Below, piece after piece: positions 1 through 55,627 of a DNA stretch of 64,000 nucleotides; position 1 is the stretch's first letter; each line of letters opens with the position of its first letter. Below the pieces are notes generated by a model. That model searched no databases and had not been told where the DNA came from. It worked only from the letters and a program-made list of their open reading frames with translations. A program made the translations under genes and the position numbers. Origin of the DNA: a virus; the IMG/VR virus record IMGVR_UViG_3300045988_141143. One strand, 5' to 3'.

Positions 1-35
1 ACTAAGCATATACTATATACTTTTAATTTTTTATA

Positions 36-43
36 TACTTTTG
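36..43 (+). promoter_or_regulatory. Candidate Bacteroidota-type -7 promoter box TACTTTTG (consensus TAnnTTTG)
   Basis: Exact TAnnTTTG match 27 nt upstream of the ATG at 71. The following leader AATACTAATAT recurs upstream of the gene at 2194. Confidence 0.45.
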
Positions 44-70
44 CAATACAAAATACTAATATTATACGTT

Positions 71-361
71 ATGAATAGGATAAAGCAAATACTAAAAGAA
101 CGCAATATTACGCAAAAGGAGTTCGCCGCCCTGCTTGGTATCTCTCCAGTCGGTTTATACCAGCAAATTAAAAAGCCATCTTATCCCACGTTAGAAAAGT
201 GGGCGGCCGTGCTTAATATTCCGATGTGGCAACTTTTCGCCAGCCCTGAAGAGGTTGCAGCCAACACGCAGCAGGAGGGGCAAGGCGTGCGCCTTGTGTG
301 TCCTCATTGCGGAAAACCTTTGCACATTGATTTAGCCAAGAGCGAAGTGTACCAAAATTAA
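71..361 (+). CDS. XRE/Cro-CI family helix-turn-helix regulator with C-terminal CPHCG motif
   Basis: ORF track 41..361; the ATG at 71 is favoured. HTH segment ITQKEFAALLGISPVGLYQQIK; C-terminal VCPHCGKPL. Confidence 0.7.
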   Translation: MNRIKQILKERNITQKEFAALLGISPVGLYQQIKKPSYPTLEKWAAVLNIPMWQLFASPEEVAANTQQEGQGVRLVCPHCGKPLHIDLAKSEVYQN

Positions 362-366
362 AAAAG

Positions 367-711
367 ATGAAATCATACATTAAAGATATACTAACCGAAA
401 AGGGCATTACACAAAAAGAACTCGCCCAGCGCCTCGACGTTAGACAAGCGACGATTTCCGCCGTAATCTCGCGGCCATCGTTTCCAACCTTGGAGCGCAT
501 CGCCGCCGCCTTGGATGTAGAGCCGTGGCAGCTCCTCGCCCCTCCTGCAGTTGTGGAGGAGGTGAAGCAAGCCAGGGCGCAGCGCGAAAGCGGTGTAGGT
601 GGTGCCCTGGTTGGTGTCGTGCGTGTCGGCGGTGAGATCTACACAGCCGACACCGTGCAACAGCTCCGCGCCATCGTGGAGAGGCTGGAGAGAGAAGAAG
701 CAAAGAAGTAA
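367..711 (+). CDS. XRE-family helix-turn-helix regulator
   Basis: HTH segment GITQKELAQRLDVRQATISAVIS. Starts 5 nt after the previous stop, so probably an operon. Confidence 0.7.
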   Translation: MKSYIKDILTEKGITQKELAQRLDVRQATISAVISRPSFPTLERIAAALDVEPWQLLAPPAVVEEVKQARAQRESGVGGALVGVVRVGGEIYTADTVQQLRAIVERLEREEAKK

Positions 712-796: not shown

Positions 797-1204
797 CTAA
801 AGTATAACGGCCGCCGCCAACTCACGGGCAAAACGGTGCAAAGCGTTTATAATTTTCTCTTTCTGTGCCTGTCGCGGTTTCTTGCGTCCGTGCATATAGG
901 CCCATAGTTGTTTTTGATTTATCCCCGTGATACGCTCCATACCTGCAAGAGATATAAAACTACCGTAATAATACAAAAAGCTTTCGGTATCATACCGCCA
1001 TATAATTGTATATTCGCCAGCCTTCAGAGGTTCGGGCCAGTCCTCGCGCGGCATGTTCTTTTTTATTAACTCGATAGCTCGCACGGTGTCGGCCTTGCAT
1101 GCTTCCACGGTGTCACCAGCCGCCCAAATTCCGGGGCAATTCTCAGAGCATGCGCCGAAACTGTCGGCACTTGCAGAAATAAGCATTATAATTTCGTTTG
1201 CCAT
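797..1204 (-). CDS. hicB: HicB-like antitoxin (N-terminal HicB-type fold plus C-terminal HTH-like segment)
   Basis: CPGIWAAGDTVEACKADTVRAIELI resembles the HicB N-domain. C-terminal ITGINQKQLWAYMHGRKKP is HTH-like. Lies directly downstream of a HicA-like ORF. Confidence 0.55.
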   Translation of the reverse strand: MANEIIMLISASADSFGACSENCPGIWAAGDTVEACKADTVRAIELIKKNMPREDWPEPLKAGEYTIIWRYDTESFLYYYGSFISLAGMERITGINQKQLWAYMHGRKKPRQAQKEKIINALHRFARELAAAVIL

Positions 1205-1233
1205 ATCCTTATATATATTATTTCGTTTGTTAT

Positions 1234-1267
1234 GAAAGAGGAAAGGGGCGCGCCCCTTTCCTCTTTC
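1234..1267. repeat. Perfect 34-bp palindrome (17+17) between hicA-like and hicB-like genes
   Basis: gaaagaggaaaggggcg|cgcccctttcctctttc read directly. No adjacent U-run, so not a canonical intrinsic terminator. Confidence 0.9.
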
Positions 1268-1272
1268 TTCTG

Positions 1273-1451
1273 CTAAATTCCAATCGCTCGCGCTATGCTC
1301 CGCCGTAACGGCTCGGGCACCTCCTTTGCCCCATGAAAGGGGACAGGGGCGAGAGCTTTCCGCCCTTGGTGTAAAAGTAGTGCGAGCCTTCGGCGTGGTC
1401 GAACTTCCAGCCCTTGGCCTTGATTCTTCGGTGAAATTCTGTGTACTTCAT
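1273..1451 (-). pseudogene. hicA: HicA-like mRNA interferase toxin, frame-disrupted as assembled
   Basis: MKYTEFHRRIKAKGWKFDHAEGSHYFYTKGGK in one frame. The family-typical continuation ALAPVPFHGAKEVPEPLRRSIARAIGI* lies in the -1 frame. Span is 179 nt (2 mod 3). The break is near 1353-1364 (GGAAAG). Confidence 0.55.
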
Positions 1452-1481
1452 TGCTTTATATGTTTTATTTGTTTGACGTTG

Positions 1482-1489
1482 CAAAGGTA
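1482..1489 (-). promoter_or_regulatory. Candidate -7 promoter box TACCTTTG for hicA/hicB
   Basis: TAnnTTTG match on the minus strand about 30 nt upstream of the hicA-like ATG (1451). Confidence 0.45.
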
Positions 1490-2557: not shown

Positions 2558-2995
2558 TTAAGACTCCAGCTCGCCGCCAGGTTTCTGACCGCCGCCTTCA
2601 GTGGTGGAGCCGCCGGGCTTCACGCCACCCGTGAGGTCGTTGCCGGCAAGGATGACCTTGAGGTCATCGGTGACGAGGGAGCGCATGTAGCTGTAGGGGT
2701 TGCCGATTTTGTGCTGCGCCTTGTAGGCCTTCATCACGGCGAGGTAAGCCTCCGTGCCCTTGGCCGACGTAGCCGACGGGCGGTTCTGCTTCCACCAAGA
2801 GGAGGCGAACTGCGATTTCTTCGTAAACGAAGATTTCACCGTCTGCTGTTTCTCACTGTTCGGCTGCACGCATCCGTGATAGCCAGCCGAATACATCTTA
2901 CCCGTGCGTTTGTTGACACCAATATAAGTAGTGTCCTTTTTGCACAGTTTGCCACTAATGGAACTAACCAAGTGGCTTGGAACAATCTTTGCCAT
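2558..2995 (-). CDS. Hypothetical protein with glycine-rich C-terminal tail (GGGQKPGGELES) shared with the HU-like protein at 24288..24839
   Basis: ORF track 2558..3001; the ATG at 2995 is favoured. Its C-terminal tail and the 12-nt leader motif GTATTAACGCCC are both shared with the 24.8-kb gene. Confidence 0.5.
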   Translation of the reverse strand: MAKIVPSHLVSSISGKLCKKDTTYIGVNKRTGKMYSAGYHGCVQPNSEKQQTVKSSFTKKSQFASSWWKQNRPSATSAKGTEAYLAVMKAYKAQHKIGNPYSYMRSLVTDDLKVILAGNDLTGGVKPGGSTTEGGGQKPGGELES

Positions 2996-3056
2996 ACGCA
3001 ATAAATTTTTCCGTGAAACATTGTCCCTAAAAAGGGGCGTTAATACACTCAGAGCA

Positions 3057-3089
3057 AGTCTACTGAAAGTCTACTGAAAGTTCACTGAC
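3057..3089. repeat. Three tandem 11-bp direct repeats (AAGTCTACTGA x2, AAGTTCACTGA) in the leader of gene 2558..2995
   Basis: Read directly. One helical turn per unit. Lies between a TACCTTTA-like box (about 3104-3112, minus strand) and the start codon. Confidence 0.8.
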
Positions 3090-3173
3090 GTTGCTCATAG
3101 TGTAAAGGTACGAAAAACGTGCGTGAAACATCGGACATAAAAAATAATTACTAACTAAAATAACAGATTTATT

Positions 3174-23023: not shown

Positions 23024-23031
23024 CAAATGTA
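23024..23031 (-). promoter_or_regulatory. Candidate -7 promoter box TACATTTG upstream of the portal candidate
   Basis: TAnnTTTG match. It lies in a 23-nt block identical to the one upstream of the HU-like gene. Confidence 0.5.
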
Positions 23032-23326
23032 CTAAGAATTGTCTTAGTGGTACGGACATGAGTCAGAACTGCGAGAGCTGCACGGTGCGGTTGCCTCATT
23101 CGGCGCACCGCGTATGAGCGAAAAAACTGCGGTCCCGTCGGTTCTCCCTTCCCTTTTCCGTCCACTTCATAGAATTGGAAAGTTCGAGAGTGTTGGTAGT
23201 CTTCGGGAATGAAGCCGTGCGAGCCGCAGTTAATCTAACAATATGTTTCACGTTTTTGCATTATGGCCTATATTATGTTGTTGTCGGGGTGTTGTGTTGC
23301 GTCCGCCTACATATCGTAGTCGTACA

Positions 23327-24287: not shown

Positions 24288-24839
24288 TTACGACTCAATC
24301 TCGGGAGGGTTGCCACCAGGTTTCTGCTCGCCGCCTCCAGTGGTGCCGGAATCGCCCGTGCCGGGAGTTGCTGGAGCATCCGTTGCAGCATCGCCCACTC
24401 GCTTGAACGAGCCGTGCTGTGCGAAGGCGGCGGTGAACTTCTTGGAGAAGTCGATGGCTACGCCTGCGGTGAGGTCCTTTGTGGTGAGGTCGGCGGCGGT
24501 AATCTCTCGGTTCACGTCAACGTCCTCGCCTGCTGCCTTACGTGCTTCGAGCTTCGCCTTGAGCTGGCTCTGAGTGAGCGAACCGCTGACGGTAGGACGT
24601 ACCGTCATGCCCTCGGCAGACACCTGTACCTTGGTGCCCAGTGCCAACAGAAGCGGCAGCTTTTTCTCCAACTGCGTCATCACGGCCATTACGTCCGCTG
24701 CGCCTACTGTAGAGTCCTGCGCCATGTAGTCGCAAAATTCAGGGAATGACATCTGCTGCAAGTCAACGATCTGTGCGCTTGCAACCTTTTCTTTCGTGAA
24801 ATTATTCACACGAACTGCAATTCTTGTTTTGATTGCCAT
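24288..24839 (-). CDS. HU-like (HU_HIG-type) DNA-binding protein with glycine-rich tail
   Basis: N-terminal region typical of Bacteroidota HU-family proteins (AADVMAVMTQLEKKLPLLLALGTKVQV). C-terminal GGGEQKPGGNPPEIES. Confidence 0.55.
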   Translation of the reverse strand: MAIKTRIAVRVNNFTKEKVASAQIVDLQQMSFPEFCDYMAQDSTVGAADVMAVMTQLEKKLPLLLALGTKVQVSAEGMTVRPTVSGSLTQSQLKAKLEARKAAGEDVDVNREITAADLTTKDLTAGVAIDFSKKFTAAFAQHGSFKRVGDAATDAPATPGTGDSGTTGGGEQKPGGNPPEIES

Positions 24840-24900
24840 AGGTTATTTTTTGTTTGGGCGTTAATACTTCCCTCTCTGTTTTTACCCGATTCCACAAAGA

Positions 24901-24957
24901 GGTTTTTTGCAATGTGCCGACACTTTTTATCGAATGTGCCGACACTTTTTGTCAAAT
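24901..24957 (+). repeat. Three AATGTGCCGACAC sites at exact 22-bp spacing (operator-like array)
   Basis: Copies start at 24901, 24923 and 24945. They lie between the promoter box (24985-24992) and the HU-like start codon (24839). Confidence 0.85.
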
Positions 24958-24984
24958 GTGCCGACACATTGCTTTTTTCGACTA

Positions 24985-24992
24985 CAAATGTA
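24985..24992 (-). promoter_or_regulatory. Candidate -7 promoter box TACATTTG upstream of the HU-like gene
   Basis: TAnnTTTG match inside the shared block TGCTTTTTTCGACTACAAATGTA. Confidence 0.5.
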
Positions 24993-25024
24993 GGGAGAAA
25001 ATTTTGAGCGGTGCGGACATAAAT

Positions 25025-25795
25025 TCAGAACAGCGTGAGCTGTGCTTGCTCCAACTTGATGCGCTTGCAAGCCTTGTCGTAATACTCCTTGTTGAGCTCA
25101 AAGCCGATGAAGTTGCGCTTCTCTTTTATACAAGCAATGGCGGTGGTGCCGCTGCCCATGCAGTTGTCTAATATGGTGTCGCCCTCGTTGGAGTAAGTAC
25201 GGATGAGGTACTGGATGAGAGCGACAGGCTTTTGAGTGGGGTGGAAGCTGTTGTGAATATCCCTCTGAAATAAGACAATATCGGTTGGATATTTTTCGTC
25301 GGTTATCATATCCTTCACTTTGCCATAATTTCCGTAACATCTGTTGGTTTGCTCTTTCTCTTGCTTTCCTCTGCTGTGATTGCGTTCATGTGGAAGACAT
25401 TTGCGCATTTGTGGATGATAGGTTGGCTGTCCGTCGTAGAAAACGGAAATCATCTCCGTTTGCTTTAGAGGCATCTTCTTTGTGTTCAAAAAGCCAGTTG
25501 TACGGCATTTATCCCACGTGATATTATAGCGCCACATCTTTTCATTGCTCATCATCAGTTTTGCCGTGAACATACCCTGTCCGAACAATATTATAGCCGC
25601 ATTGGGCTTACTGATACGAAGATATTGCTTCCATAAAGAATCAAGTGGAATAATACTATCCCATCCTCCTCCTTCGCTCTGCTTATTGAGGACACCATAC
25701 GGCAAATCGCACACAATGCAATCCACGCTTCCGTCTGGAATCCTTTTCATTCCTTCGAGGCAGTCTTCATTATATATTTTGTTCAGTTCTATCAT
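25025..25795 (-). CDS. DNA methyltransferase, beta-class N6-adenine/N4-cytosine type
   Basis: Motif IV-like CDLPYG near the N-terminus. The AdoMet motif DNCMGSGTTAIAC near the C-terminus gives the beta-class order. Confidence 0.8.
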   Translation of the reverse strand: MIELNKIYNEDCLEGMKRIPDGSVDCIVCDLPYGVLNKQSEGGGWDSIIPLDSLWKQYLRISKPNAAIILFGQGMFTAKLMMSNEKMWRYNITWDKCRTTGFLNTKKMPLKQTEMISVFYDGQPTYHPQMRKCLPHERNHSRGKQEKEQTNRCYGNYGKVKDMITDEKYPTDIVLFQRDIHNSFHPTQKPVALIQYLIRTYSNEGDTILDNCMGSGTTAIACIKEKRNFIGFELNKEYYDKACKRIKLEQAQLTLF

Positions 25796-26837: not shown

Positions 26838-26859
26838 TTTTACAGAATCCTAAGTTTTT

Positions 26860-26976
26860 ATCCCAAAAATGCCAAAATTGGATTATTTTAGTCCAGAAAA
26901 ATCCAAAAATGGACGAATTTAATCCCAAAAATCCAAAAGCTGGACCAGATTTATCCAGAAAAATCCAAAAATGGAT
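26860..26976. repeat. Four 24-bp imperfect palindromes at exact 31-bp periodicity
   Basis: Units start at 26860, 26891, 26922 and 26953: ATCCCAAAAATGCCAAAATTGGAT / GTCCAGAAAAATCCAAAAATGGAC / ATCCCAAAAATCCAAAAGCTGGAC / ATCCAGAAAAATCCAAAAATGGAT. Spacers are 7 bp. Confidence 0.9.
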
Positions 26977-40194: not shown

Positions 40195-41280
40195 TTAGCC
40201 ATAGATTTCCTGCATATCCTCCCTCGAAAGTGTTACCTTGGCTCTTTTGCAAAACATGAAAAAAGTATTTGCTCTTACTCTTTCGTATTTTCCGAATGAC
40301 TTCCAAGGAGCCACAAAGTCTGATTCACGGTGTCCGTGGTTGGCATCAAAGGGACGGAAACGAGAAACTCGCTTCCACATATCATAGCCTTCATTCGGAT
40401 CGATACTGTATAAAGACATTCCGCATTTAACCCAGTCATCATAGTTTTCCATAATGTCAACAGCATTCTGCTCTACCTTACGTACAAGGACACGCGCTTT
40501 GCGCAAGATGATGTCGGGTGTATCATTTTCCCAATCACCAGTATAACCCGACCTCTGACCTGACGACGTATTTTCGTAATGCGTAGCAACTTTAGTTACA
40601 GGAATTAGCGATGGCAACACAGCCATATCTTCCAGTCCCTTATACGGCACCACATTTTCATTGATATATATATGTTCGGGATCGTCCCAGGAGGCGAAGC
40701 GCACACGACCGATGTTGCTGCAAGCCTTGTCGAGCATGATGCCGATAGCGGCATATTCTTTGAGCAGAGCTTTGAACTGGTCTTTGTGTCTTTCGGGATA
40801 GGCCAGACGAACCAGACCGAAATAACCAGTACCAGAGCAAGACCGCATCATTAATCCTATCTCAGGACGAAAACGGGCAAGCTTAAATATACTTTCAAAA
40901 TCAGTTATCTGAAGATTGTCCTGCAGATCAATGTCGATGGCGAGCCAGCCCGTGTGCTGTTTCAGGTGGCTCTCTCGTCGGCTCACCATGACACGCTGCC
41001 CTGGATGCGTCAGACTGTCATCTTCATAGAGAGCGAACAAGCCGCTAAGAGTGGCACCAGGTAACATCTTCTTGGTATTGATGTACTCAGGCATTTTCTT
41101 TGCCTTGCTGCCAAATTCCTGACGCATAGCACGAAGACGCTGCACATACGGCTTCCATCTATCCGTAAGACAGAACTCGCGGATGGTCATCTGCTGAATG
41201 CACTCACCCGTCTCGCGGTCTACGAAACGGCCATAAGCATCTTGGGCAGACTCATAAATAGAGCAAACTTCGTCAAACAT
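40195..41280 (-). CDS. VirE/BT4734-type N-terminal domain protein (replication/primase-associated candidate)
   Basis: GWLAIDIDLQ, SCSGTGYFGLVRL and ACSNIGRVRFASWD resemble conserved blocks of Bacteroidota VirE_N-type proteins. Recognition is from memory only. Confidence 0.4.
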   Translation of the reverse strand: MFDEVCSIYESAQDAYGRFVDRETGECIQQMTIREFCLTDRWKPYVQRLRAMRQEFGSKAKKMPEYINTKKMLPGATLSGLFALYEDDSLTHPGQRVMVSRRESHLKQHTGWLAIDIDLQDNLQITDFESIFKLARFRPEIGLMMRSCSGTGYFGLVRLAYPERHKDQFKALLKEYAAIGIMLDKACSNIGRVRFASWDDPEHIYINENVVPYKGLEDMAVLPSLIPVTKVATHYENTSSGQRSGYTGDWENDTPDIILRKARVLVRKVEQNAVDIMENYDDWVKCGMSLYSIDPNEGYDMWKRVSRFRPFDANHGHRESDFVAPWKSFGKYERVRANTFFMFCKRAKVTLSREDMQEIYG

Positions 41281-41457
41281 ATCTTAGTTATTATACTTAA
41301 TACTTTCACTGCAAAATTAAGAAATAAAACCTAAATAACAAAATATCTGGGGTATTTTCTTGTGTATTTAAGATATATTAAAAGAAATTTAATCGAAATA
41401 TCCCAGTTGTTTCACGTAATGATAGGTATTTTTGAGTGATGAGAAGGAGCATAAAAT

Positions 41458-42150
41458 AAAATGAGACCAAAAAGAAGACTCTGGTCTCATTTCTGTATCA
41501 AAAAGTCCCATTTTTCAAAAATGAACCAAAAAGCAAAAGTCCACTCATCCTATTTTTCTCCTTTTTAGTCCCATGATTGTCTCACGATTATCACCCTGTT
41601 GCCCACTTATTTCTTGCTGTTACTTGCTTACTAATTAGCTTTTTATATTATTTTGGTCTCAAAATGATTATTTTTTTTATAAACTAATATGCGCATAAGA
41701 AATAAAATATTTATCTAAAAGATATAAAATACAGCAAAATTGGCTCAAATCCATCTTATACTTTGCTCCATTTCAATCTTGTAAGTAACTTATTGTCTGA
41801 TGTTTACGGCAAAGCCGTTAATGCTACTAACTTCTAAATTGAGGTTAGGGGCTTTTGATTTTAGGAGAATAAAAAAATTACCCAAAATTCTGATATAGTA
41901 TGCTTAGGATTCATGAAAAATGCGACCAAAACCCTGAAATGAGACCAAAAATGCGAATAAAGTCCCAATAAATGAGACTGTTACACCACTACTCTACCCT
42001 GTCACATTCATATTTGCGAAATGCGACCAGATTATTCGGATTCCATATTGACTATCGTTTTATAGCCGTTCACACCTCACAGCGAAAGAGAAAAACACTG
42101 CGTTTCACAACGAAAAAAGACCACCACGTTTCACAACGGAGCGGTCTCAT
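41458..42150. repeat. Iteron-rich AT-rich non-coding region (origin/operator candidate)
   Basis: Nine copies of ATG(A/C)GACC. Six are direct at 41461, 41521 (degenerate), 41920, 41939, 41972 and 42021. Three are inverted at 41482, 41654 and 42143. Four AAAGTCC(C/A) copies; 12-bp CGTTTCACAACG x2 (42101, 42127). Confidence 0.6.
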
Positions 42151-42199
42151 CAGAAAATACTAACTAATAAATAAGATAAAGAAAATAAAATTCGTAAAC

Positions 42200-45100
42200 T
42201 TAGCCCTTGCCTTTCATAAACTGGTTGGCTTTTGTCATGCTGTCATAAAGATTACCACGGCCATACATGTCTATCTTTGCGTAGATAGGTTCATTCAGTC
42301 GGTCGAGGAGGGTCTTGACGGCTTGCATGAGAGCGGCTTGGCTGGCTGTGTTGTTAGCGATTACATTGTTGGCCGCTGGTGCGCCCAACAGAAGATTACC
42401 ATTTTCTGCTGTAAAGCCCGCTGCTGCGTCCCCCATTGCGCTCGCAAGCTCGCCGACATTACCATTGTCAAATGCGCGTCTTGCTGCACGTCTGCCTGAA
42501 TAGTTGCTGTCGTAGTTGACGAGAGCCTTGAGGAGTGCCGGATTGTTCATCATCATGGCGTGTGTCGTCTCACGACCGATTACTATCTCGGGTCCATTCT
42601 CTGCTACAAGAGAAGGCTGGCCATTGATGGTAGTAGCCCTTGGAGTAGTTATCATTTGCACGCCAGTTTTTTGCCTGCCGTCATCCTCTGTTGCCCAATA
42701 AATATCACCATTGTCGGCTACAAATGGCTTCAGGTCTTGCACGTTACCGCTGTCATACGTAAGCATACCTGAAACGAGCTTCGTGTTTTTAGATACAGAA
42801 GAAGATTTCTTACTGCTGCTGCTGAAAGCCGAATTAAGTGCCCACTGAAGCAAGCCCATCAGAGTAGCCATCACTCCTGCTGCAGCAATAGGACCAGCAA
42901 TAGGACCTAAGAACTCAAAACACTTCGCCATTGCTCCCGCGATAGAGAATGTCACCTCTTGGTCGGTGCGGGCCGCGTCCGAGTTTGCCACATCCTGATT
43001 GTTCTGTTCTTTAGCTGCAAGATTGGTGGTCATAGCCGTCTGGGTCATATCAAGAATGGCATTCTGCGCTATCTCCGTACTCTTACTTTGCTCTTTATTG
43101 CCGGCATCGGTGATGTCAGTTATATTCTTGACACCTTGATGGGTTTCTTTCTCTCTATCCTTAGCTCCCTTTTTAACCTCTTTGCTGAGTTCTTTTTGAT
43201 GCTTCCTTTCTTTCTTGAGCTGCTTGGCTTTTTCCTTGTCGTCTCCAGTTTTCTTTGAAGAACCGCCAAGAGTGAAATTGGTATTCATCAAGTCACCCAC
43301 AAGGCTGCCTCCGATACCGGCTACGGCATCGGACAGAGTAGTACCACCTGTAATAGCACCAGCAACGGCTGTTCCCGCTTGAGAGGCTGTATCAATACCG
43401 TAAGTCTCCTTGTTATAATCATGGATAGTACCGTTTGGATGACGTTTCTTCCATGCAGCAGGAGGCTCAGTATTTGCAAGATTGTTGCCGTTGGCATCAA
43501 TATACTGACCTCCTACGACACGTACCCACATCGGGTTTTCAGCCGTGCCCAGGTTACGCCAATCCATATCAATGGTAGTAGCATTAGCATTAGCATTGGC
43601 TCTCGCTGCATCAATGCCAGGCTGTGCGTTTTTCTTGCCTTGTTTCGCTCCGGCATCATTGATGGCTTTCCACATTTGGGTGTTCACGTCATTTAGCGCC
43701 ATATTAGCCCACGACTCAATCATAGACTTCAGGGCATTCTTGATGCTCTCCTGTGCGCTTGATACGTCAGACTCCATCATGGCGAAAGCCTTGCCTACCT
43801 CTGCACCGAAGGTTTCAATAGGCTGTACGAGCTGCTGCATCTGCGAAAGGCGGTTCTTCATCGCCGTCGCCATTTGGTTGGCATAAGCAAGTTCGGCCTC
43901 CTGGCGAGCCTTATCCGCCTCGTCTACCAACTGCTTGTTACGAGAGTTCTTCAGACAGAAGGCATAGTAATCTTCTGCCAGCTGCATCTTCAGCTTCAGT
44001 AGTTCTACCTCTGGGTCAGCGGTAAGGTCGGCAAGACCGAGGTTGGAAAGAAGGTTGGTCCGCTTGCCGAAGAGAGAACTTTCCTGCTGCATCTTGCGCA
44101 GCTTTGCCTGCTGATCGAGATTGCGTTTGTTGTTTTTCCAAAGAAAATCAGAAATCTTCTTGGCTTCATCGTATTCTTTTTTCTGTGCAGCTGTATATTC
44201 ATCAACATATTGGATAAGCTTGTGATAGAATAGCTTTACATTCTGCTCAGTCTCGCCCATCAACGCAAGAAAGACAGAAGGCATCTGCATATAGTCTTTT
44301 CCAAATAAGAACTGAAGCAGCTTCTGCTTCTCCCCGTTTGTCTCAAAAAGTGCCGCCATTTGTGTGCGAGCCTTTTCCAAAACTTTTATAACATCAGCCC
44401 TATCTTTATTTAGCGTTTCAAGCGAAACGTCTGCAAAACGAGAATTTATTAATCCCAAGAAAGAATTTTGTTGAACTATGCCTGTGTAATCATGTTCAAG
44501 TAGCTCCTTCCGACGTTGCTCTATGCGTTTTTGAATCACATTGCTTGAATCGTTCTCTTTTGATGAAGCATTCAGCCACATTCGGTCAAGATAAGCACGG
44601 TCGCGTTCATCTGATTTATATCCGACAACTTGCCCTTTCTTAATTTTAGGCATTTGCTTTAATAAATCAGAACGAAGTTGTGCTACATTAGTATTCAATA
44701 TGGCATCCTCAAGCATACGAGACTGAGATTGTCCAAACTCATCGTCTTTTTCCTTGCGATATTTGTCTATTGATTTTTTAAATTTATCCCAAGTTTTATT
44801 TCCAAAGACAATAGACTGCTGCGCAGCTGCAAGGGCAGCATCCATTTGTATTTGAATGTCATTAACTGCCTGTTCTTGTAATTCTTTCTCTACACCCTTC
44901 TTTGAAAGATCCTCAACAGTAGCTGTCATTTGGCGCTTATAGAAATTCTTTATCTTCGTAATAAACTCAGATATGTTGTTGCGAGCATCATCTTCAGGAG
45001 TAGTTGTGTTACCTCCACCACCGTTGCCGCCATAAACTTTTTGACCTACAGCCATTCCATCTCCTACATCAAGTTTAGCCCCAAACTTTTTCCGTAAGGC

Positions 45101-50096: not shown

Positions 50097-50900
50097 ATGA
50101 GTCAGATAACACAAGGCACATTGGCACGCATCGACAAATGGTTGGCGCAAGGCATCAGTATCGAGACGATGTTCCCGAACCTGGAGCAGCGCTATCGTAT
50201 GCAACTCTGTGCGGAATATTACAAGAGGTGGGTGCAGAACAAGGACATTGACCCTCGTACCACCTGTCGCAACATTGCCAGACGCGACTACGAGTTGTTT
50301 ATCAACCAGGCCGCGCAGGGCAACAAGGAGGCTGTGGCGATGATTCAGGCGCTGGGCATCACGGTGGATGACGAGGGCAATGTGAGAAATCGCACCATCA
50401 CGGAACTCAACAACGACGTGGCGGTGTGCAATCACATCATCCGCTTCTTCACCACCGACGAGAGTCCGCGCCACAAAGCCATGTACCTCAATTCGGCAGA
50501 ATGGTTGATACGCACGGGCAAGCAGCAGAACAACGACCGTGCCGTGGATAAGGGTATGCAGGCCTTGGCCAACATATACAGCAACTTCATCGAGGAGAAG
50601 GACGCTACGGACGAGATGCCGGACATGAGCCGCATTGCCATCACGCAGGACGTGAGCATCGTGAAGCGCGACCGCATCAACTACACCGAGGAGGAGAAGC
50701 TTCGTCTGGCCCGCAAGTATGGTCTTACGGCAAAGGATATGCGGGATATAGCCGAAGAGGAATCCCTGCAGGCTGTAGGCAAAGAGAATGAGCCCGACTA
50801 CTTCGAGTACATGGAGAAGAAAGACGAGGAGGAGGACGTGATTAGACACGGGTACATGAAAGAAAGCGAAATGACGGATTCCGAAACGACGGATGAGTGA
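50097..50900 (+). CDS. Hypothetical protein with acidic C-terminus (small terminase candidate by position only)
   Basis: First gene of the plus-strand block that ends with the large terminase. The antisense 335-aa ORF has aberrant composition. Confidence 0.35.
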   Translation: MSQITQGTLARIDKWLAQGISIETMFPNLEQRYRMQLCAEYYKRWVQNKDIDPRTTCRNIARRDYELFINQAAQGNKEAVAMIQALGITVDDEGNVRNRTITELNNDVAVCNHIIRFFTTDESPRHKAMYLNSAEWLIRTGKQQNNDRAVDKGMQALANIYSNFIEEKDATDEMPDMSRIAITQDVSIVKRDRINYTEEEKLRLARKYGLTAKDMRDIAEEESLQAVGKENEPDYFEYMEKKDEEEDVIRHGYMKESEMTDSETTDE

Positions 50901-50976
50901 AAACGAAACAGAAGTATCTGTTTGATGCAAACATAAGTATCTGTTTGATATAAACAATGGGCATCGTTTGAAAAAC

Positions 50977-51145
50977 AACTTGCCGACACTTTTCATCGAA
51001 TGTGCCGACACATTAAAACGAAGGTGTTAGCACTTTTTGCCAAAAGTGTTAGCACATTTTACCAAAAGTGTTAGCACATCAAAAAAACGGAGGTTCAGTT
51101 GATTTCATCAAAAGAGTCGGCTGATTTCGCCAAAAGAGTCGAACC
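50977..51145 (+). repeat. Eight-register 22-bp periodic array: TGCCGACAC x2, GTGTTAGCAC x3, one degenerate unit, AAGAGTCG x2
   Basis: Ten-mer registers at 50980, 51002, 51024, 51046, 51068, 51090, 51112 and 51134. Preceded by AAGTATCTGTTTGAT x2 (50912, 50935). Confidence 0.85.
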
Positions 51146-51193
51146 TCGGCAAATATATAGTGCATAAATGCGCTATAAAAACACTATAAAAAT

Positions 51194-52044
51194 ATGTTAA
51201 ACGAACAACTGCAGAAAAAGGTAAAACAGTCGATAAAACTCCTGCAGAGTGTGCAGAAGCGATACGACGGCGAGATAGAGATAGCCTACTCGGGCGGTAA
51301 GGACTCCGACGTGATCCTTCAGCTGGCGAAAGAGGCAGGCATCAAGTATCGGGCCATATACAAGAATACGACCATCGACCCGCCAGGCACGTTGGGGCAC
51401 GTCAGAGAAATGGGAGTGGAGATACTGCGGGCCAAGACATCCTTCTTTCATCTCGTGGCACAGAAAGGATTTCCATCTCGCTTTACTCGTTTCTGTTGTG
51501 AAGAACTGAAGGAATACAAGGTGCTCAACAAAAGTATTATCGGCGTGCGCAAGGCTGAGAGCCGGAAACGAAACGAAAGATACAACGAGCCGACAGAGTG
51601 CCGATACTTCGGAAAGAAGAAAGAGGAAAATCACGTAGAACAGATTTATCCTATTCTGGAATGGACCGATGAGGACGTGCGTGACTTCATCATAGACAGA
51701 AAGTTGAAACTCGCACCCATTTATTACAATTCGGGGGGCAAATCGACGTGTCGAAACGTCTTGGCTGTATGTGCTGTCCTCTTGCCTCAAGGCGCAAGCG
51801 CATTATCGAGTTTCAGAAATATCCCAAGATAGCAAAGGCTTATCTCCGTGCGGGGCAACGATTTATGGAAACGCATCCTGACAGCAAGGCGTGCCAGAGG
51901 TACGACAATGTTTACGAATGGTTCGTTCGCGACGTATTTTACAGCTCCAATGCAGATTGGAGCAAGGTAAGCACAGGGCTGTTCGGTAAGCCGGACTTCA
52001 AGAAATTCTTGGAGGACAAGTTCGGTATTGACTTGACATTATAA
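51194..52044 (+). CDS. PAPS-reductase-family (adenine nucleotide alpha-hydrolase) protein, split at a G6 tract as assembled
   Basis: The SGGKDS PP-loop lies in ORF 51194..51832. The family-typical C-terminal RLGCMCCP lies in ORF 51748..52044 (-1 frame). Seven G at 51733-51738 would fuse them as ...YYNSGGQIDVSKRLGCMCCP.... Confidence 0.7.
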
Positions 52045-53372: not shown

Positions 53373-53603
53373 ATGAGTAACAACCGACACAAATACTTCA
53401 ACAAGGTACCGCCGTTCAAGCCGGACCCTGAACACTACACTCGCAAGCAACACTCTTGGAAAGCGAAGGAGGCCTACGAGACGGAAGATGATGCTTGGGA
53501 ATATCTCAATCAGAACCCGAAGCTGCGGGCGCAGGGCATGACGGCGTACCGATGCAGGACGTGCAACAAATGGCACATAGGACATAAGACGCACAGCGAA
53601 TAA
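53373..53603 (+). CDS. Small basic protein with C-x2-C...H-x3-H motif
   Basis: YRCRTCNKWHIGHKTH. Lies directly upstream of the large terminase. Confidence 0.4.
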   Translation: MSNNRHKYFNKVPPFKPDPEHYTRKQHSWKAKEAYETEDDAWEYLNQNPKLRAQGMTAYRCRTCNKWHIGHKTHSE

Positions 53604-53632: not shown

Positions 53633-55627
53633 ATGCAGCAAGCACACAACATATACTTAACCAAATTCCAGCAGCAGTCACTATACATGGGAGCCAAGGA
53701 TGAGCGAGTGATTGCTGCCCGCCGTGTGGGTAAGACCGACGGACTTGTGGCTCCTTACGTCTGGACGGCAAGCAACTCCATGCCTGGTATGCTCGGCGCA
53801 TGGGTGGCTGTGTCACGTCAGCAGGGCTTCGGCAAGACCATACCGAGTACGATGGCGGCCATGGAACGTATGTTCGGATTTACGCAGGGCATTCACTTCG
53901 GTTGGGGTCGCCCACCGAAGCACGCTCGCGAGAGTATCTTCAAGCCTAAGAACTACGACAACTACATTTGGTTGGCCAATGGTGCGGGATGGGTTCTTAT
54001 CTCCCTCTCGCAGACCGCCTCTGCCAACTCCTACACGTTCTCTGCGATGGTGGGCGACGAGGCGAGATTCTTTCCCTATAAGAAAGTGACCGACGAGCTG
54101 ATGCCGGCGCTTTCAGGACAGACGCACCCCTTGGGCGACATCAACTTCTCTGACCACAACCCGATGTATAAAAGTACGCGCTTTCTCTCGGATGCCTCGC
54201 TCACAGCCAAAGGTTCGTGGTTGGAGAAGGAGGAGGAGAAGTTGGATATGACGGTGGAGACGGGTCCATTCAAGGGCAAGACCTACCGATGGGTACAGGA
54301 GCAGCTGGAGGATTATGCCGACAAGGTGATACGCTACAACGACCTGTTGTATAACGCCAAGAAGACCGGTCACGGGGTGCATGTGGTGCCGAAGGAACTG
54401 CGCACGATGATACGCGCCGTGGCGCTGAAGATGATGAAACATGAGGGGCAGTTCCGCATCATGCCCAACCATGGCCAACACGTCACGAAGGGCATGGTGG
54501 AGATGGCTGTCAACTACAAACTCATTCCGCAGGAGGATGCCGAACTGATTTACGATTACGAATACCTTATCACGCCGGAAGAGGATTTCGAGATGCAGAT
54601 GTTTCTGCGGTCGAAGAAATTCTCTGAAAACTATCTGCGTGAGCTGCGCCGTGTGGCTTTCTGCGTGCGCCGTGCGTCATCGCTCGACAATGTGGATATT
54701 CTGGGTGAAGACTATATTCGCCAGATGAAACGAGATTTGCCTCCGATGACCTTCGCTATTTCAATCCTCAACATCAAAGTAAAGAAGTCAAACGACGGAT
54801 TTTACTCCAACCTCGACATCGATCATGTTCACGGATATATCCCCGACGAGATAGACCCCTTATCGTCTGCCAAATTTTCCACGCAAAAGGTATCGGGCAT
54901 CATCGGTGGCAAGAAAGTCACGAGCGAGAGTTATCAGCCCGACTTCAAGGAGTTGGGCGAGCGCAACGACTCGCGCCAGGACTCCGACTGCATCAACTCC
55001 CTTCCTTTATATATAGCCCTCGATTACAATGCCAATATCAATACGTTGGTGGTCGGGCAGATGTACGAGCGCGACGGCATGGAATGTCTGAACGTCATCA
55101 AGAGTTTCTATGTAAAGAACGAGCGCAAGTTGCGTGAAGTGATAGCCGATTTTTCCGACTATTACGCACCGAAGCGAGCCATCAACCGTGACGTGACGTA
55201 TTTCTATGATGCTACGGCAAAGCAGGGAGCATCCTATGCTTCGTCGGACGAGCGATTCTATATGACCGTGATTGCTGAATTGGAGAAGCACGGCTGGAAC
55301 GTGACGGCCATTGATATGGGCGCACCAGAGAAGCACGAGGTGAAGCACAAGATTATCAACGACGGACTGGCTCACCTCTCCTACCCTGCCATCCGCATTA
55401 ACCAGGTGAACAATCCCGACCTTATCATCGCCATGCAGCTGTGTGAGGTGCAGATTTCGTACAAGGGATTCCACAAAGACAAGAGTCAGGAGAAGAAGCC
55501 CGAAAGCGAGGACACGCTGCCCCTGCAGCAACGTACCGACTTCACGGATGCCTTCGATACGCTGTACTTAGGTTGCAAGTTCTTCCGTGTCGGTGGCGGT
55601 TGGTTTGTGCTGCCGAGTGGAAGATAG
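53633..55627 (+). CDS. terL: Terminase large subunit
   Basis: Walker A IAARRVGKT, Walker B FSAMVGDEARF, and a C-terminal nuclease-like Asp-containing region (YIALDYNANINT). Size 664 aa. Confidence 0.75.
   Translation: MQQAHNIYLTKFQQQSLYMGAKDERVIAARRVGKTDGLVAPYVWTASNSMPGMLGAWVAVSRQQGFGKTIPSTMAAMERMFGFTQGIHFGWGRPPKHARESIFKPKNYDNYIWLANGAGWVLISLSQTASANSYTFSAMVGDEARFFPYKKVTDELMPALSGQTHPLGDINFSDHNPMYKSTRFLSDASLTAKGSWLEKEEEKLDMTVETGPFKGKTYRWVQEQLEDYADKVIRYNDLLYNAKKTGHGVHVVPKELRTMIRAVALKMMKHEGQFRIMPNHGQHVTKGMVEMAVNYKLIPQEDAELIYDYEYLITPEEDFEMQMFLRSKKFSENYLRELRRVAFCVRRASSLDNVDILGEDYIRQMKRDLPPMTFAISILNIKVKKSNDGFYSNLDIDHVHGYIPDEIDPLSSAKFSTQKVSGIIGGKKVTSESYQPDFKELGERNDSRQDSDCINSLPLYIALDYNANINTLVVGQMYERDGMECLNVIKSFYVKNERKLREVIADFSDYYAPKRAINRDVTYFYDATAKQGASYASSDERFYMTVIAELEKHGWNVTAIDMGAPEKHEVKHKIINDGLAHLSYPAIRINQVNNPDLIIAMQLCEVQISYKGFHKDKSQEKKPESEDTLPLQQRTDFTDAFDTLYLGCKFFRVGGGWFVLPSGR

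What the first reader, a model, noticed from the sequence alone, without database searches (positions are those of the whole stretch)
24901..24957. Same AATGTGCCGACAC site, same 22-bp phasing, in the leader of the HU-like gene
Three identical 13-mers at 24901, 24923 and 24945 lie downstream of the candidate promoter (-7 box at 24985-24992, minus strand) and upstream of the start codon at 24839. That is a roadblock or operator position. The motif and its 22-bp spacing are identical to the first two units of the 51-kb array, which links the two loci into one regulon.
Basis: seen in the sequence. Interest (0 to 1): 0.5.

Follow-up and report, generated by a model that had tools for sequence, protein, structure and literature searches.

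The report
Swappable repeat operator before phage HU gene
Three identical, evenly spaced short palindromes sit just after the promoter of a phage histone-like (HU) gene; related phages keep this layout but swap in a different palindrome, so it looks like an exchangeable on/off site whose reader is still unknown.

Summary
The repeats are real, but the 13-mers lie at 24911, 24933 and 24955, 10 bp above the stated positions. Each is the core of a 16-bp near-palindrome. The period is 22 bp.

They start 17 bp downstream of a conserved promoter (TGTCCG-N21-TACATTTG) and upstream of an HU-HIG gene.

Among six relatives with the same core, 0 of 39 core columns vary, against 44 of 155 other leader columns (p = 2e-5).

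HU-HIG cassettes with at least 80% identical proteins hold 1-3 units in this slot but use at least seven core families. The same families fill multi-module arrays in the packaging operon, including the window's 51-kb array.

So the operator position and the link between the two loci are supported. A single shared regulator is not.

- No protein tracks the family, neither the HU-HIG protein nor the three XRE helix-turn-helix proteins.
- Inverted units and hybrid half-sites favour double-stranded DNA sites over RNA hairpins.

Best reading (about 0.45): a three-part DNA operator for an unidentified dimeric binder. This would be a new variant of a known kind.

The parts
25014..25019 (-). Upstream promoter element TGTCCG, 21 nt before the -7 box
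   Evidence: TGTCCG-N(14-26)-TAnnTTT occurs 4 times in the window against 0.38 expected. Three of these have identical spacing. The 21-nt spacing is invariant in 17 of 18 HU-HIG leaders of both leader types; the 18th (L013) has TGTCCA.
24985..24992 (-). Bacteroidota-type -7 box TACATTTG (candidate promoter of the HU-HIG gene)
   Evidence: The same 24-nt stretch TACATTTGTAGTCGAAAAAAGCAA recurs at 23024-23031 (-) before the 597-aa gene, there without repeats.
24955..24970 (-). Unit 1 (promoter-proximal): dyad AATGTG-TCGG-CACATT in gene sense
   Evidence: The core starts 17 nt after the -7 box.
24933..24948 (-). Unit 2: AAAGTG-TCGG-CACATT in gene sense, 22 bp from unit 1
24911..24926 (-). Unit 3: AAAGTG-TCGG-CACATT in gene sense, 22 bp from unit 2
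24856..24902 (-). Conserved 5'UTR after the repeats: possible stem CCTCTTTGT/ACAGAGAGG (24902-24894 with 24879-24871) and the motif GTATTAACGCCC (24867-24856)
   Evidence: Conserved in type-1 leaders. The stem pairs in 90% of cells but shows only one compensatory change, and 61 of 500 shuffles do as well. GTATTAACGCCC is shared with the leader of the 145-aa gene.
24288..24839 (-). HU-HIG family gene (183 aa, glycine-rich C-terminal tail)
   Evidence: Pfam PF18291, E 2e-8. 389 homologs, the 120 listed at 80-98% identity, some in contigs assigned to Prevotella.
50977..51014 (+). Family-b module of the 51-kb array: two units, AACTTGCCGACAC and AATGTGCCGACACATT, 22 bp apart. Their centre is inverted relative to the sense of the HU-HIG leader.
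   Evidence: The reverse complement matches leader units 2-3, spacer included, at about 31 of 33 positions (read).
50901..51193 (.). Multi-module array between the 267-aa gene and the PAPS-reductase-like gene. Modules: a x2 (50912, 50935), i x1, b x2, c x3 (GTGTTAGCAC at 51024, 51046, 51068), d x3 (about 51091-51148).
   Evidence: Syntenic arrays with other module sets occur in relatives.
23025..23058 (-). Paralogous promoter of the same class without repeats, before the 597-aa gene (a natural no-operator comparison)

Best explanation
The three units form a three-part operator on double-stranded DNA. Each unit is a 16-bp near-palindrome: A-rich flank, GTG, a 4-bp centre with a pyrimidine-purine step, CAC, T-rich flank. 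Neighbouring centres are 22 bp apart, about two helical turns, so bound dimers would lie on roughly one face of the helix and could bind cooperatively.

The first site overlaps the downstream edge of the RNA polymerase footprint, and the other two lie in the early transcribed region. Occupancy would therefore block initiation or early elongation from the TGTCCG-N21-TACATTTG promoter into the HU-HIG gene, and probably into the downstream SPFH gene.

The module is exchangeable. Recombination swaps it, together with the UTR and the first 23 or so codons, for modules of other core families. These families come from the same pool that fills the arrays in the packaging operon. This would tie a mobile HU-HIG cassette to whichever site-specific factors act in the resident genome.

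Shown: the anatomy, the position, the constraint on the cores, the family swapping and the shared pool. Inferred: protein binding, repression, cooperativity and the identity of the binder, which could be encoded by the phage or by the host.
For: - Exact triplet with a 22-bp period, far beyond chance.
- Fixed slot after a conserved promoter in all cassettes: offset 16-18 nt in type-1 leaders and about 27-31 nt in type-2 leaders.
- Core constraint: 0 of 39 core columns vary among six b-type leaders, against 4 of 18 spacer columns and 40 of 137 flanking columns (Fisher p = 2e-5 against all other columns, 0.008 against spacers).
- The layout is kept while the core changes. The families are b GTGTCGGCAC, c GTGTTAGCAC, e GGGCTAGCCC, f GGGGATAGCCCC, g AGGTTCGAACC, d AGAGTCGGCTGA and d2 AGAGTTAGCTGA, in cassettes whose proteins are at least 80% identical.
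- Points favouring DNA over RNA: units are inverted inside one module (L015 unit 2, L125 units 1 and 3, d unit 1, L018 b). The half-site hybrid GTG-TTAG-CCC would break a 3-bp stem. Modules occur in both orientations relative to transcription of the operon.
- The same families occur in arrays, and the leader's family is present in the same genome's array for the window, _134987, _171405 and the 3300014943 pair.
- A copy of the same promoter at 23024 lacks the repeats, so they are an addition to the promoter, not part of it.
- The phage group has HTH proteins whose recognition helices vary strongly on conserved scaffolds, that is, a pool of changing DNA specificities.
Against: - No binder was identified, and the obvious candidates fail a one-to-one test:
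  - XRE2 has recognition helix RQAT in the window and SRPS in _156455, yet both have b leaders.
  - XRE3 type E occurs with b, g and d leaders.
  - The XRE1 HTH is identical with b and g leaders.
- At least a dozen families, with 4-5 per genome, would need many specific proteins.
- The site is transcribed, so an RNA role is not excluded.
- The transcription start is inferred from a consensus, not measured.
- Core invariance could be inflated if the b modules share a very recent origin through recombination.
Confidence: 0.45

Rival explanations
1. Autoregulation by the HU-HIG protein itself through shape-specific binding. The protein would recognise the common geometry (A-tract, GC-rich dyad with a central pyrimidine-purine step, T-tract, 22-bp phasing) in its own leader and in the arrays. 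Any palindromic family would then work.
For: - A DNA-binding protein gene with repeated dyads between its promoter and start codon is the classic layout for autoregulation.
- The leader and gene travel together as one cassette through different neighbourhoods.
- This explains why no other protein tracks the family.
- HU/IHF proteins prefer bent or kinkable DNA (established knowledge). The authors of the HU-HIG clade argue it is not a sequence-specific factor (PMC5499826).
Against: - All 39 core columns, including the asymmetric 4-bp centre, are invariant across b leaders. Shape reading would not demand this.
- The body of the protein (residues 24-150) is nearly invariant whatever the family. 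Residues 13-14 'HL' occur with four families.
- Arrays exist in 95-100-kb relatives that returned no HU-HIG match (_151591, _138321).
- The predicted structure was too poor to test the N-terminal hairpin (pLDDT 35).
Confidence: 0.15
2. The units work as RNA in the 5' UTR. The three mutually complementary segments would form alternative hairpins (1:2 or 2:3, or 1:3 enclosing 2), or pair in trans with the array segment of the packaging-operon transcript. This would control translation or stability of the HU-HIG mRNA.
For: - The units lie in the predicted transcribed leader.
- The leader folds better than shuffles (-40.4 kcal/mol, z = -4.7).
- In the gene sense, b and c cores are fully self-complementary if G-U pairs are allowed. 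In L015 and L125 the middle unit is the exact complement of its neighbours.
- The array's b pair is the near-exact reverse complement of leader units 2-3.
- A matching-only mechanism would explain why no protein co-varies.
Against: - No Rfam family matches.
- Single-unit stems are only 3 bp, followed by an A-A mismatch.
- The hybrid c' unit breaks the stem.
- The orientation of leader and array modules is not consistent: c has the same sense in L010 and in the array, while b is antisense.
- Free co-drift would not produce discrete families conserved across phages with 74% protein identity.
- Any palindromic repeat gives a good fold z-score.
Confidence: 0.15
3. The sites are binding sites of host (Prevotella) transcription factors that the phage has borrowed. 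The arrays would collect sites for several host factors, and the HU-HIG leader would carry one of them.
For: - The families are discrete and conserved regardless of which phage HTH types are present.
- Array content turns over rapidly between close relatives, as expected for tuning to different hosts.
- The dyads are 16 bp with a central CG or TA step, a usual format for bacterial dimeric regulators (established knowledge).
Against: - Not tested: no host genome could be scanned for enrichment of single sites.
- The one genome-collection scan for the two-unit pattern found no such modules in bacterial chromosomes. It found only a differently phased 22-bp tandem repeat in one Prevotellaceae MAG.
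Confidence: 0.15
4. The units are structural DNA sites, or selfish repeats, whose main role is not transcriptional. Candidates are packaging recognition near the terminase genes, partition or replication iterons, or a BIME- or MITE-like mosaic of palindromic units. Under this reading the copy in the HU-HIG leader is a by-product of recombination with the array.
For: - The arrays sit between a 267-aa protein and the terminase. In relatives the 267-aa protein is fused to the zinc-ribbon protein that precedes TerL.
- Copy number is unstable (c' x5 in L180).
- In L247 the HU-HIG cassette sits exactly where L185 has an array.
Against: - Every HU-HIG cassette has a module at the same distance from its promoter, whichever family it carries. 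Random insertion would not produce this.
- Many relatives with conserved terminase and 267-aa genes have no array.
- A better origin candidate lies at 41280-42200, next to a primase-like gene.
- No leader or tail with terminal inverted repeats, as in BrickBuilt, is present.
Confidence: 0.07
5. The repeats are neutral products of replication slippage and have no function.
For: They are perfect short tandem units whose copy number (1-3) varies between relatives.
Against: - The cores are invariant while the spacers and flanks vary (p = 2e-5).
- The same layout is rebuilt with seven different cores.
- The same cores recur at a second locus and in distant relatives.
Confidence: 0.03

Closest known systems
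Three-part operators OR/OL of lambdoid phages (lambda, 434, P22)
   Same: Three partially symmetric 14-18-bp sites with AT-rich spacers and about 21-24 bp between centres. They occur at two loci of one genome and are read by dimers that bind cooperatively. Specificity is exchanged as a block between otherwise similar phages (heteroimmunity). This comparison rests on established knowledge.
   Different: Here the sites lie downstream of the promoter instead of overlapping its recognition elements. No repressor gene is adjacent. The second locus is a concatenation of 4-5 different modules. No cognate protein is known.
Transcriptional roadblock operators in leaders or early transcribed regions (for example LacI O2-type sites, PurR at purB, CcpA and CodY roadblocks)
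   Same: A dimer-binding dyad placed after the promoter, which acts by blocking RNA polymerase.
   Different: Those are single sites for known host regulators. Here there are three phased identical sites, and the family is exchangeable.
Iteron- or centromere-type repeat arrays whose binding protein also regulates promoters (ParR-parC of R1, omega heptads of pSM19035, KorB sites of RK2, Rep iterons)
   Same: Phased direct repeats. The same site is reused at several loci to couple functions. Specificity diversifies between related replicons.
   Different: No par or rep gene lies next to the arrays. Several families sit side by side. The units are dyads of 16 bp at 22-bp spacing.
Phage SPO1 TF1 and IHF (site-preferring members of the HU family)
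   Same: TF1 is a phage-encoded HU-family protein with preferred sites that affect transcription, and IHF is a host-encoded HU-family protein that binds specific sites. Both are precedents for the autoregulation rival.
   Different: The body of this HU-HIG protein does not vary with the site family. The IHF consensus WATCAANNNNTTR is not present in the units.
REP/BIME mosaics of enterobacteria and the BrickBuilt 23-nt minisatellite MITE of Porphyromonas gingivalis (PMC4596501)
   Same: Clusters of short palindromic or tandem units of several types in intergenic regions. BIMEs are often transcribed, and BrickBuilt occurs in Bacteroidales with a similar period.
   Different: BrickBuilt has one repeat type without spacers, up to about 23 copies, and leader and tail segments with terminal inverted repeats. 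The units here come as modules of 1-5 copies from many families and hold a fixed slot after a promoter.

Membership tests
Lambdoid-type immunity operator (OR/OL) | Three dyad-symmetric sites with helical phasing | tested here: met
   Three 16-bp near-palindromes with a 22-bp period.
Lambdoid-type immunity operator (OR/OL) | Sites overlap the promoter recognition elements of divergent promoters | tested here: not met
   The units start 17 nt after the -7 box, and no divergent promoter is present.
Lambdoid-type immunity operator (OR/OL) | A cognate repressor gene is adjacent and co-varies with the operator | tested here: not met
   The neighbours are a DNA methylase and the HU-HIG gene. XRE1, XRE2 and XRE3 lie at least 22 kb away, and their types do not track the family.
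Roadblock or leader operator of a DNA-binding regulator | A dyad site between the transcription start and the start codon | tested here: inconclusive
   The position relative to the consensus promoter fits, but the transcription start is inferred, not mapped.
Roadblock or leader operator of a DNA-binding regulator | A protein binds the site and lowers expression | not testable with these tools
   This needs EMSA or pulldown experiments and reporter assays.
Replication-origin iterons | Next to an initiator gene, with an AT-rich unwinding element | tested here: not met
   No rep-like gene is found at either locus. An AT-rich repeat region next to a primase-like gene lies elsewhere, at 41280-42200.
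Known RNA families (Rfam 15) | A match at or near a family's gathering score | tested here: not met
   The best hits score 17-23 bits against thresholds of 37-102, with E at least 0.1.
Intrinsic terminator or attenuator | A GC-rich stem followed by a U-run | tested here: not met
   No terminator-like site is found in 24700-25150. The units are followed by an A-run in the gene sense.
BrickBuilt-type MITE minisatellite | A single 23-nt unit without spacers, flanked by leader and tail segments with terminal inverted repeats | tested here: not met
HU-HIG clade (for the gene downstream) | A match to the HU-HIG profile above Pfam's threshold, and a glycine-rich C-terminal motif | tested here: met
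   PF18291 scores 34.7 bits against a cut-off of 26.2. The tail reads GDSGTTGGGEQKPGGNPPEIES. The clade is described in PMC5499826. The fold was not confirmed because the model had pLDDT 35.

The most novel reading that the evidence does not exclude
These Prevotella phages may use a combinatorial 'address code'. A pool of at least a dozen interchangeable 16-bp dyad modules, usually in threes at 22-bp phasing, would be kept as a multi-module hub inside the packaging operon. Single modules would be copied by recombination into the leaders of mobile accessory cassettes such as the HU-HIG gene, and analogous 11-bp repeats into the 145-aa gene leader.

A cassette's expression would then be re-wired by swapping its module, not by changing a regulator. 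The readers could be host factors, an undescribed class of phage proteins, or module-to-module pairing without a dedicated protein.
Probability: 0.25. Interest if true: 0.75.

Novelty: new variant of a known kind. Interest (0 to 1): 0.55.

Why it matters
Almost nothing is known about gene regulation in the abundant, uncultivated 90-100-kb phages of Prevotella. This locus offers three concrete handles:
- a defined promoter class;
- a clearly constrained cis element;
- natural experiments: the same promoter without repeats, and the same cassette carrying seven different cores.

If the modules are operators, swapping them shows how a mobile accessory gene gets connected to a new genome's control circuit. 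It would also give a set of orthogonal sites for building genetic tools in Bacteroidota. If no protein reads them, the mechanism would be more unusual.

Tried and rejected
- HU-HIG as a family-specific reader: rejected.
  - N-terminal residues 5-23 co-vary with the family, but ENHL occurs with e and d2, DNHL with f and d2, and 'HL' with four families.
  - The rest of the protein is invariant, and the pattern fits a recombination tract running from the module to about codon 23.
- XRE1, XRE2 and XRE3 as cognate binders of the leader module: no one-to-one tracking.
- 267-aa protein next to the array:
  - No Pfam, PHROG or PDB hit.
  - All homologs are at least 73% identical.
  - The AlphaFold model had pLDDT 48.5 and was unusable, so no fold search was run.
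- HU-HIG structure: pLDDT 35, unusable.
- Rfam and terminator scans: nothing found.
- A minus-strand promoter TATATTTG (51150-51157) reading into the array: present in the window but not conserved in L024, L002 or L001, so dropped.
- Test of whether the leader's family is also in the same genome's array: it holds in the four testable cases. It is weak because b and g/d are in nearly all arrays. Exact two-unit scans found no second b or g locus in several HU-HIG contigs.
- Cultured relatives: none. TerL is at most 31% identical to any deposited phage, and the HU-HIG protein has no match.
- The 5'UTR stem after the repeats: only one compensatory change, not significant.
- Genome and metagenome scans for the two-unit pattern: mostly chance hits in high-GC DNA. 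They added two arrays and one more HU-HIG leader.

Full report
**1. Observation**

AATGTGCCGACAC occurs three times on the + strand, at 24911, 24933 and 24955. The full units are 24903-24926, 24925-24948 and 24947-24970, with start-to-start spacing of 22 and 22 bp (TRF score 100).

Allowing up to 2 mismatches, the window has 8 matches against 1.47 expected, and none of 100 shuffles reaches 8. All 8 fall in two loci. A chance triplet in register is expected about 3e-11 times.

The units lie in the 185-bp gap between the stop of an N6/N4 DNA methylase gene (25025-25795, minus) and the ATG at 24839 of a 183-aa gene. Pfam places that gene in HU-HIG (E 2e-8, above the curated cut-off). The gene has the glycine-rich tail described for that clade (PMC5499826).

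The period is not a multiple of three, so the repeat is not coding.

**2. Anatomy**

Read in the gene's sense, the order is:
- TGTCCG (25019-25014);
- 21 nt;
- TACATTTG (24992-24985);
- 17 nt;
- three units, AATGTG-TCGG-CACATT then two of AAAGTG-TCGG-CACATT, separated by A-rich linkers;
- a conserved UTR carrying GTATTAACGCCC;
- the ATG.

Each unit is a 16-bp palindrome around a central CG step, with a single asymmetric pair two positions from the axis.

No sigma-70-like promoter or terminator-like site is present. TAnnTTTG is the Bacteroidota -7 consensus (established knowledge).

The promoter assignment gains support from a class of three sites with the same TGTCCG spacing, at 3104-3137, 23025-23058 and 24986-25019 (4 matches in all against 0.38 expected). 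The copy at 23024 shares 24 nt with the HU-HIG promoter but has no repeats.

If transcription starts a few nt after the -7 box, the units cover about +8 to +75. That is an operator or roadblock position.

**3. Context**

The window is part of an uncultivated phage of about 90-100 kb:
- It encodes a terminase large subunit at 53633-55627, a head protease, a lysozyme and several DNA methylases.
- It has no close cultured relative.
- Homologs sit in contigs assigned to Prevotella, some next to an integrase.

**4. Comparison of HU-HIG leaders**

HU-HIG homologs are all at least 80% identical. I read about 30 leaders, from viral contigs, from public assemblies and from one metagenome contig.

All keep the promoter geometry. 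The TGTCCG spacing is 21 nt in 17 of 18 tallied leaders, and the 18th (L013) has TGTCCA. All carry 1-3 units at about 22-bp spacing in the same slot.

The core differs between cassettes:

| Family | Core | Where seen |
|---|---|---|
| b | GTGTCGGCAC | window, L007-009, L119-122, L247 |
| c | GTGTTAGCAC | L010 |
| e | GGGCTAGCCC | L109-118 (ten places, two kinds of neighbourhood) |
| f | GGGGATAGCCCC | L014, L015, L106-108 |
| g | AGGTTCGAACC | L011, L013 |
| d | AGAGTCGGCTGA | L012, L126 |
| d2 | AGAGTTAGCTGA | L123-125 |

L010 is almost identical to the window upstream of the module (one difference in about 170 nt). It diverges by about 7% from the module to codon 19, then matches again. That pattern is a recombination tract.

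Among six b-type leaders, 0 of 39 core columns vary. By comparison, 4 of 18 spacer columns, 20 of 63 upstream columns and 20 of 74 downstream columns vary. Fisher p is 2e-5 against all other columns and 0.008 against spacers. The cores are therefore constrained, including their asymmetric centre.

**5. The arrays**

The 51-kb array (50901-51193) lies between a 267-aa gene and a PAPS-reductase-like gene. Both are inside a plus-strand operon that runs on to the terminase.

Its modules are: a x2 at 23-bp spacing, one i unit, b x2, c x3 and d x3.

The b and c cores occur nowhere else in the 64 kb beyond chance-level hits inside coding regions.

Relatives carry arrays at the same place with other sets of modules, drawn from a pool of at least a dozen families. 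Content changes quickly: c' x5 in L180, and units with flipped centres in L018.
- L185 has a second array (b x3 plus d2 x3) between the reductase and a methylase gene.
- In L247 the whole HU-HIG cassette sits at that same junction.
- Many relatives with 93-97% identical terminase have no array.

All families share one geometry: an A-rich flank, 3-4 specific bp, a 4-bp centre with a central CG or TA step, the complementary 3-4 bp, and a T-rich flank. Centres recur with different arms: TCGG in b and d, TTAG in c, c' and d2.

**6. DNA or RNA?**

Four points favour a double-stranded DNA site read by a symmetric dimer:
- Units are inverted within one module (L015, L125, d unit 1, L018).
- Half-site hybrids exist (GTG-TTAG-CCC).
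- Modules take either orientation relative to transcription of the operon. Family b is antisense in the window's array and sense in L185's second array.
- The stems of single units are only 3 bp.

No Rfam family matches. The good fold scores are expected for any palindromic repeat.

An RNA role is not excluded:
- The units are in the leader.
- The three units can pair with one another.
- The array's b pair is the near-exact reverse complement of leader units 2-3.

**7. Who reads the sites?**

I could not find out.
- HU-HIG protein: residues 24-150 are nearly invariant whatever the family. Residues 5-23 vary but do not form a code, and they are physically linked to the module.
- Three XRE-type HTH proteins at the left end:
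  - In relatives, XRE2 and XRE3 carry strongly variable HTH segments on conserved C-terminal parts. This shows the group diversifies DNA-binding specificity.
  - Their types do not follow the leader family. XRE2 RQAT and SRPS both occur with b. XRE3 type E occurs with b, g and d. The XRE1 HTH is identical with b and g.
- 267-aa protein: no detectable family, and its model is unusable.
- Arrays occur in 95-100-kb relatives that returned no HU-HIG match.

**8. Verdict**

The position reading is supported. The link to the array is real at the level of a shared pool of modules, but 'one regulon' is not established.

The best-supported mechanism is a three-part DNA operator that blocks transcription into the HU-HIG gene. 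It is carried on an exchangeable module and read by an unidentified factor (confidence about 0.45).

The closest known systems are the three-part operators of lambdoid phages and roadblock operators. The locus fails two defining features of the former: overlap with the promoter, and an adjacent co-varying repressor gene.

The combination of a swappable module, a multi-family hub and no tracking protein makes this a new variant of a known kind.

Noticed in passing
window 2558-3140 (minus strand); repeat at 3056-3088: A second cassette has the same design. A 145/147-aa gene shares only its glycine-rich tail with the HU-HIG protein. It has the same TGTCCG-N21-TAnnTTT promoter and the same UTR motif GTATTAACGCCC, with an 11-bp tandem repeat (CTTTCAGTAGA) between them. 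In relatives the unit at that place differs: AGTACTACGAA, GGTCTTACGGT, TATTCACTnnA.
   Followed up: partly
window 3104-3137, 23025-23058 and 24986-25019 (minus strand): A promoter class TGTCCG-N21-TAnnTTT(G) occurs three times with identical spacing (4 matches in all against 0.38 expected). It may be specific to the phage.
   Followed up: partly
window 367-711 and 2194-2487; loci L258-L311: Homologs of the XRE2 and XRE3 proteins have strongly variable helix-turn-helix segments joined to highly conserved C-terminal parts, a zinc ribbon in XRE3. This suggests that DNA-binding specificity is swapped as a domain.
   Followed up: partly
window 41280-42200: An AT-rich non-coding stretch of about 900 bp contains many ATGAGACCAAAAA, ATGCGACCAAAA and GTCCCA-type repeats. 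It lies next to a primase-like gene (40195-41280) and is a plausible replication origin.
   Followed up: no
window 26856-26975: A 31-bp (or 62-bp) tandem repeat of about 3.9 copies, TTTATCCAGAAAAATCCAAAAATGGACCAA, lies between the 344-aa gene and the lysozyme gene.
   Followed up: no
window 53373-53603 and 50097-50900; loci L043-L097: The 76-aa zinc-ribbon protein just before the terminase gene is fused to the C-terminus of the 267-aa protein's homolog in the relatives of about 78% identity. The two therefore probably work together, perhaps as the small terminase.
   Followed up: partly
window 51194-52044: The PAPS-reductase-like gene appears split into two overlapping frames (51194-51832 and 51748-52044). 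In L185 the corresponding gene continues in one frame through the split point but also has a second overlapping C-terminal reading frame (2034-2906 and 2777-3160). This may be a frameshift or a sequencing error.
   Followed up: no
window 1-80; loci L130 and L131: The two assembly contigs shown that carry the first XRE gene both stop 70-80 bp upstream of it. The window start therefore probably lies at a genome end or at a repeat that breaks assemblies.
   Followed up: no
window 797-1484 (minus strand): A HicA-like and HicB-like toxin-antitoxin pair (weak Pfam hits) has an 8-bp-arm palindrome, AAAGGTAG-N8-CTACCTTT, over its -7 box at about 1475-1500.
   Followed up: no
window 24871-24902 (minus strand): A possible 9-bp stem in the HU-HIG 5'UTR, CCTCTTTGT/ACAGAGAGG. 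It shows one compensatory change (L247) and one G-C to G-U change (L010). Support is not significant.
   Followed up: yes
L222 2700-2870 (Prevotellaceae MAG CAMWKZ010000031.1): A bacterial 22-bp tandem repeat, GCTCCGCACATGGTGCCGACAC, of about 7 copies lies upstream of a queA-like gene. It contains the same 10-mer GTGCCGACAC but with a different dyad frame and a GC-rich spacer. It is probably unrelated.
   Followed up: partly
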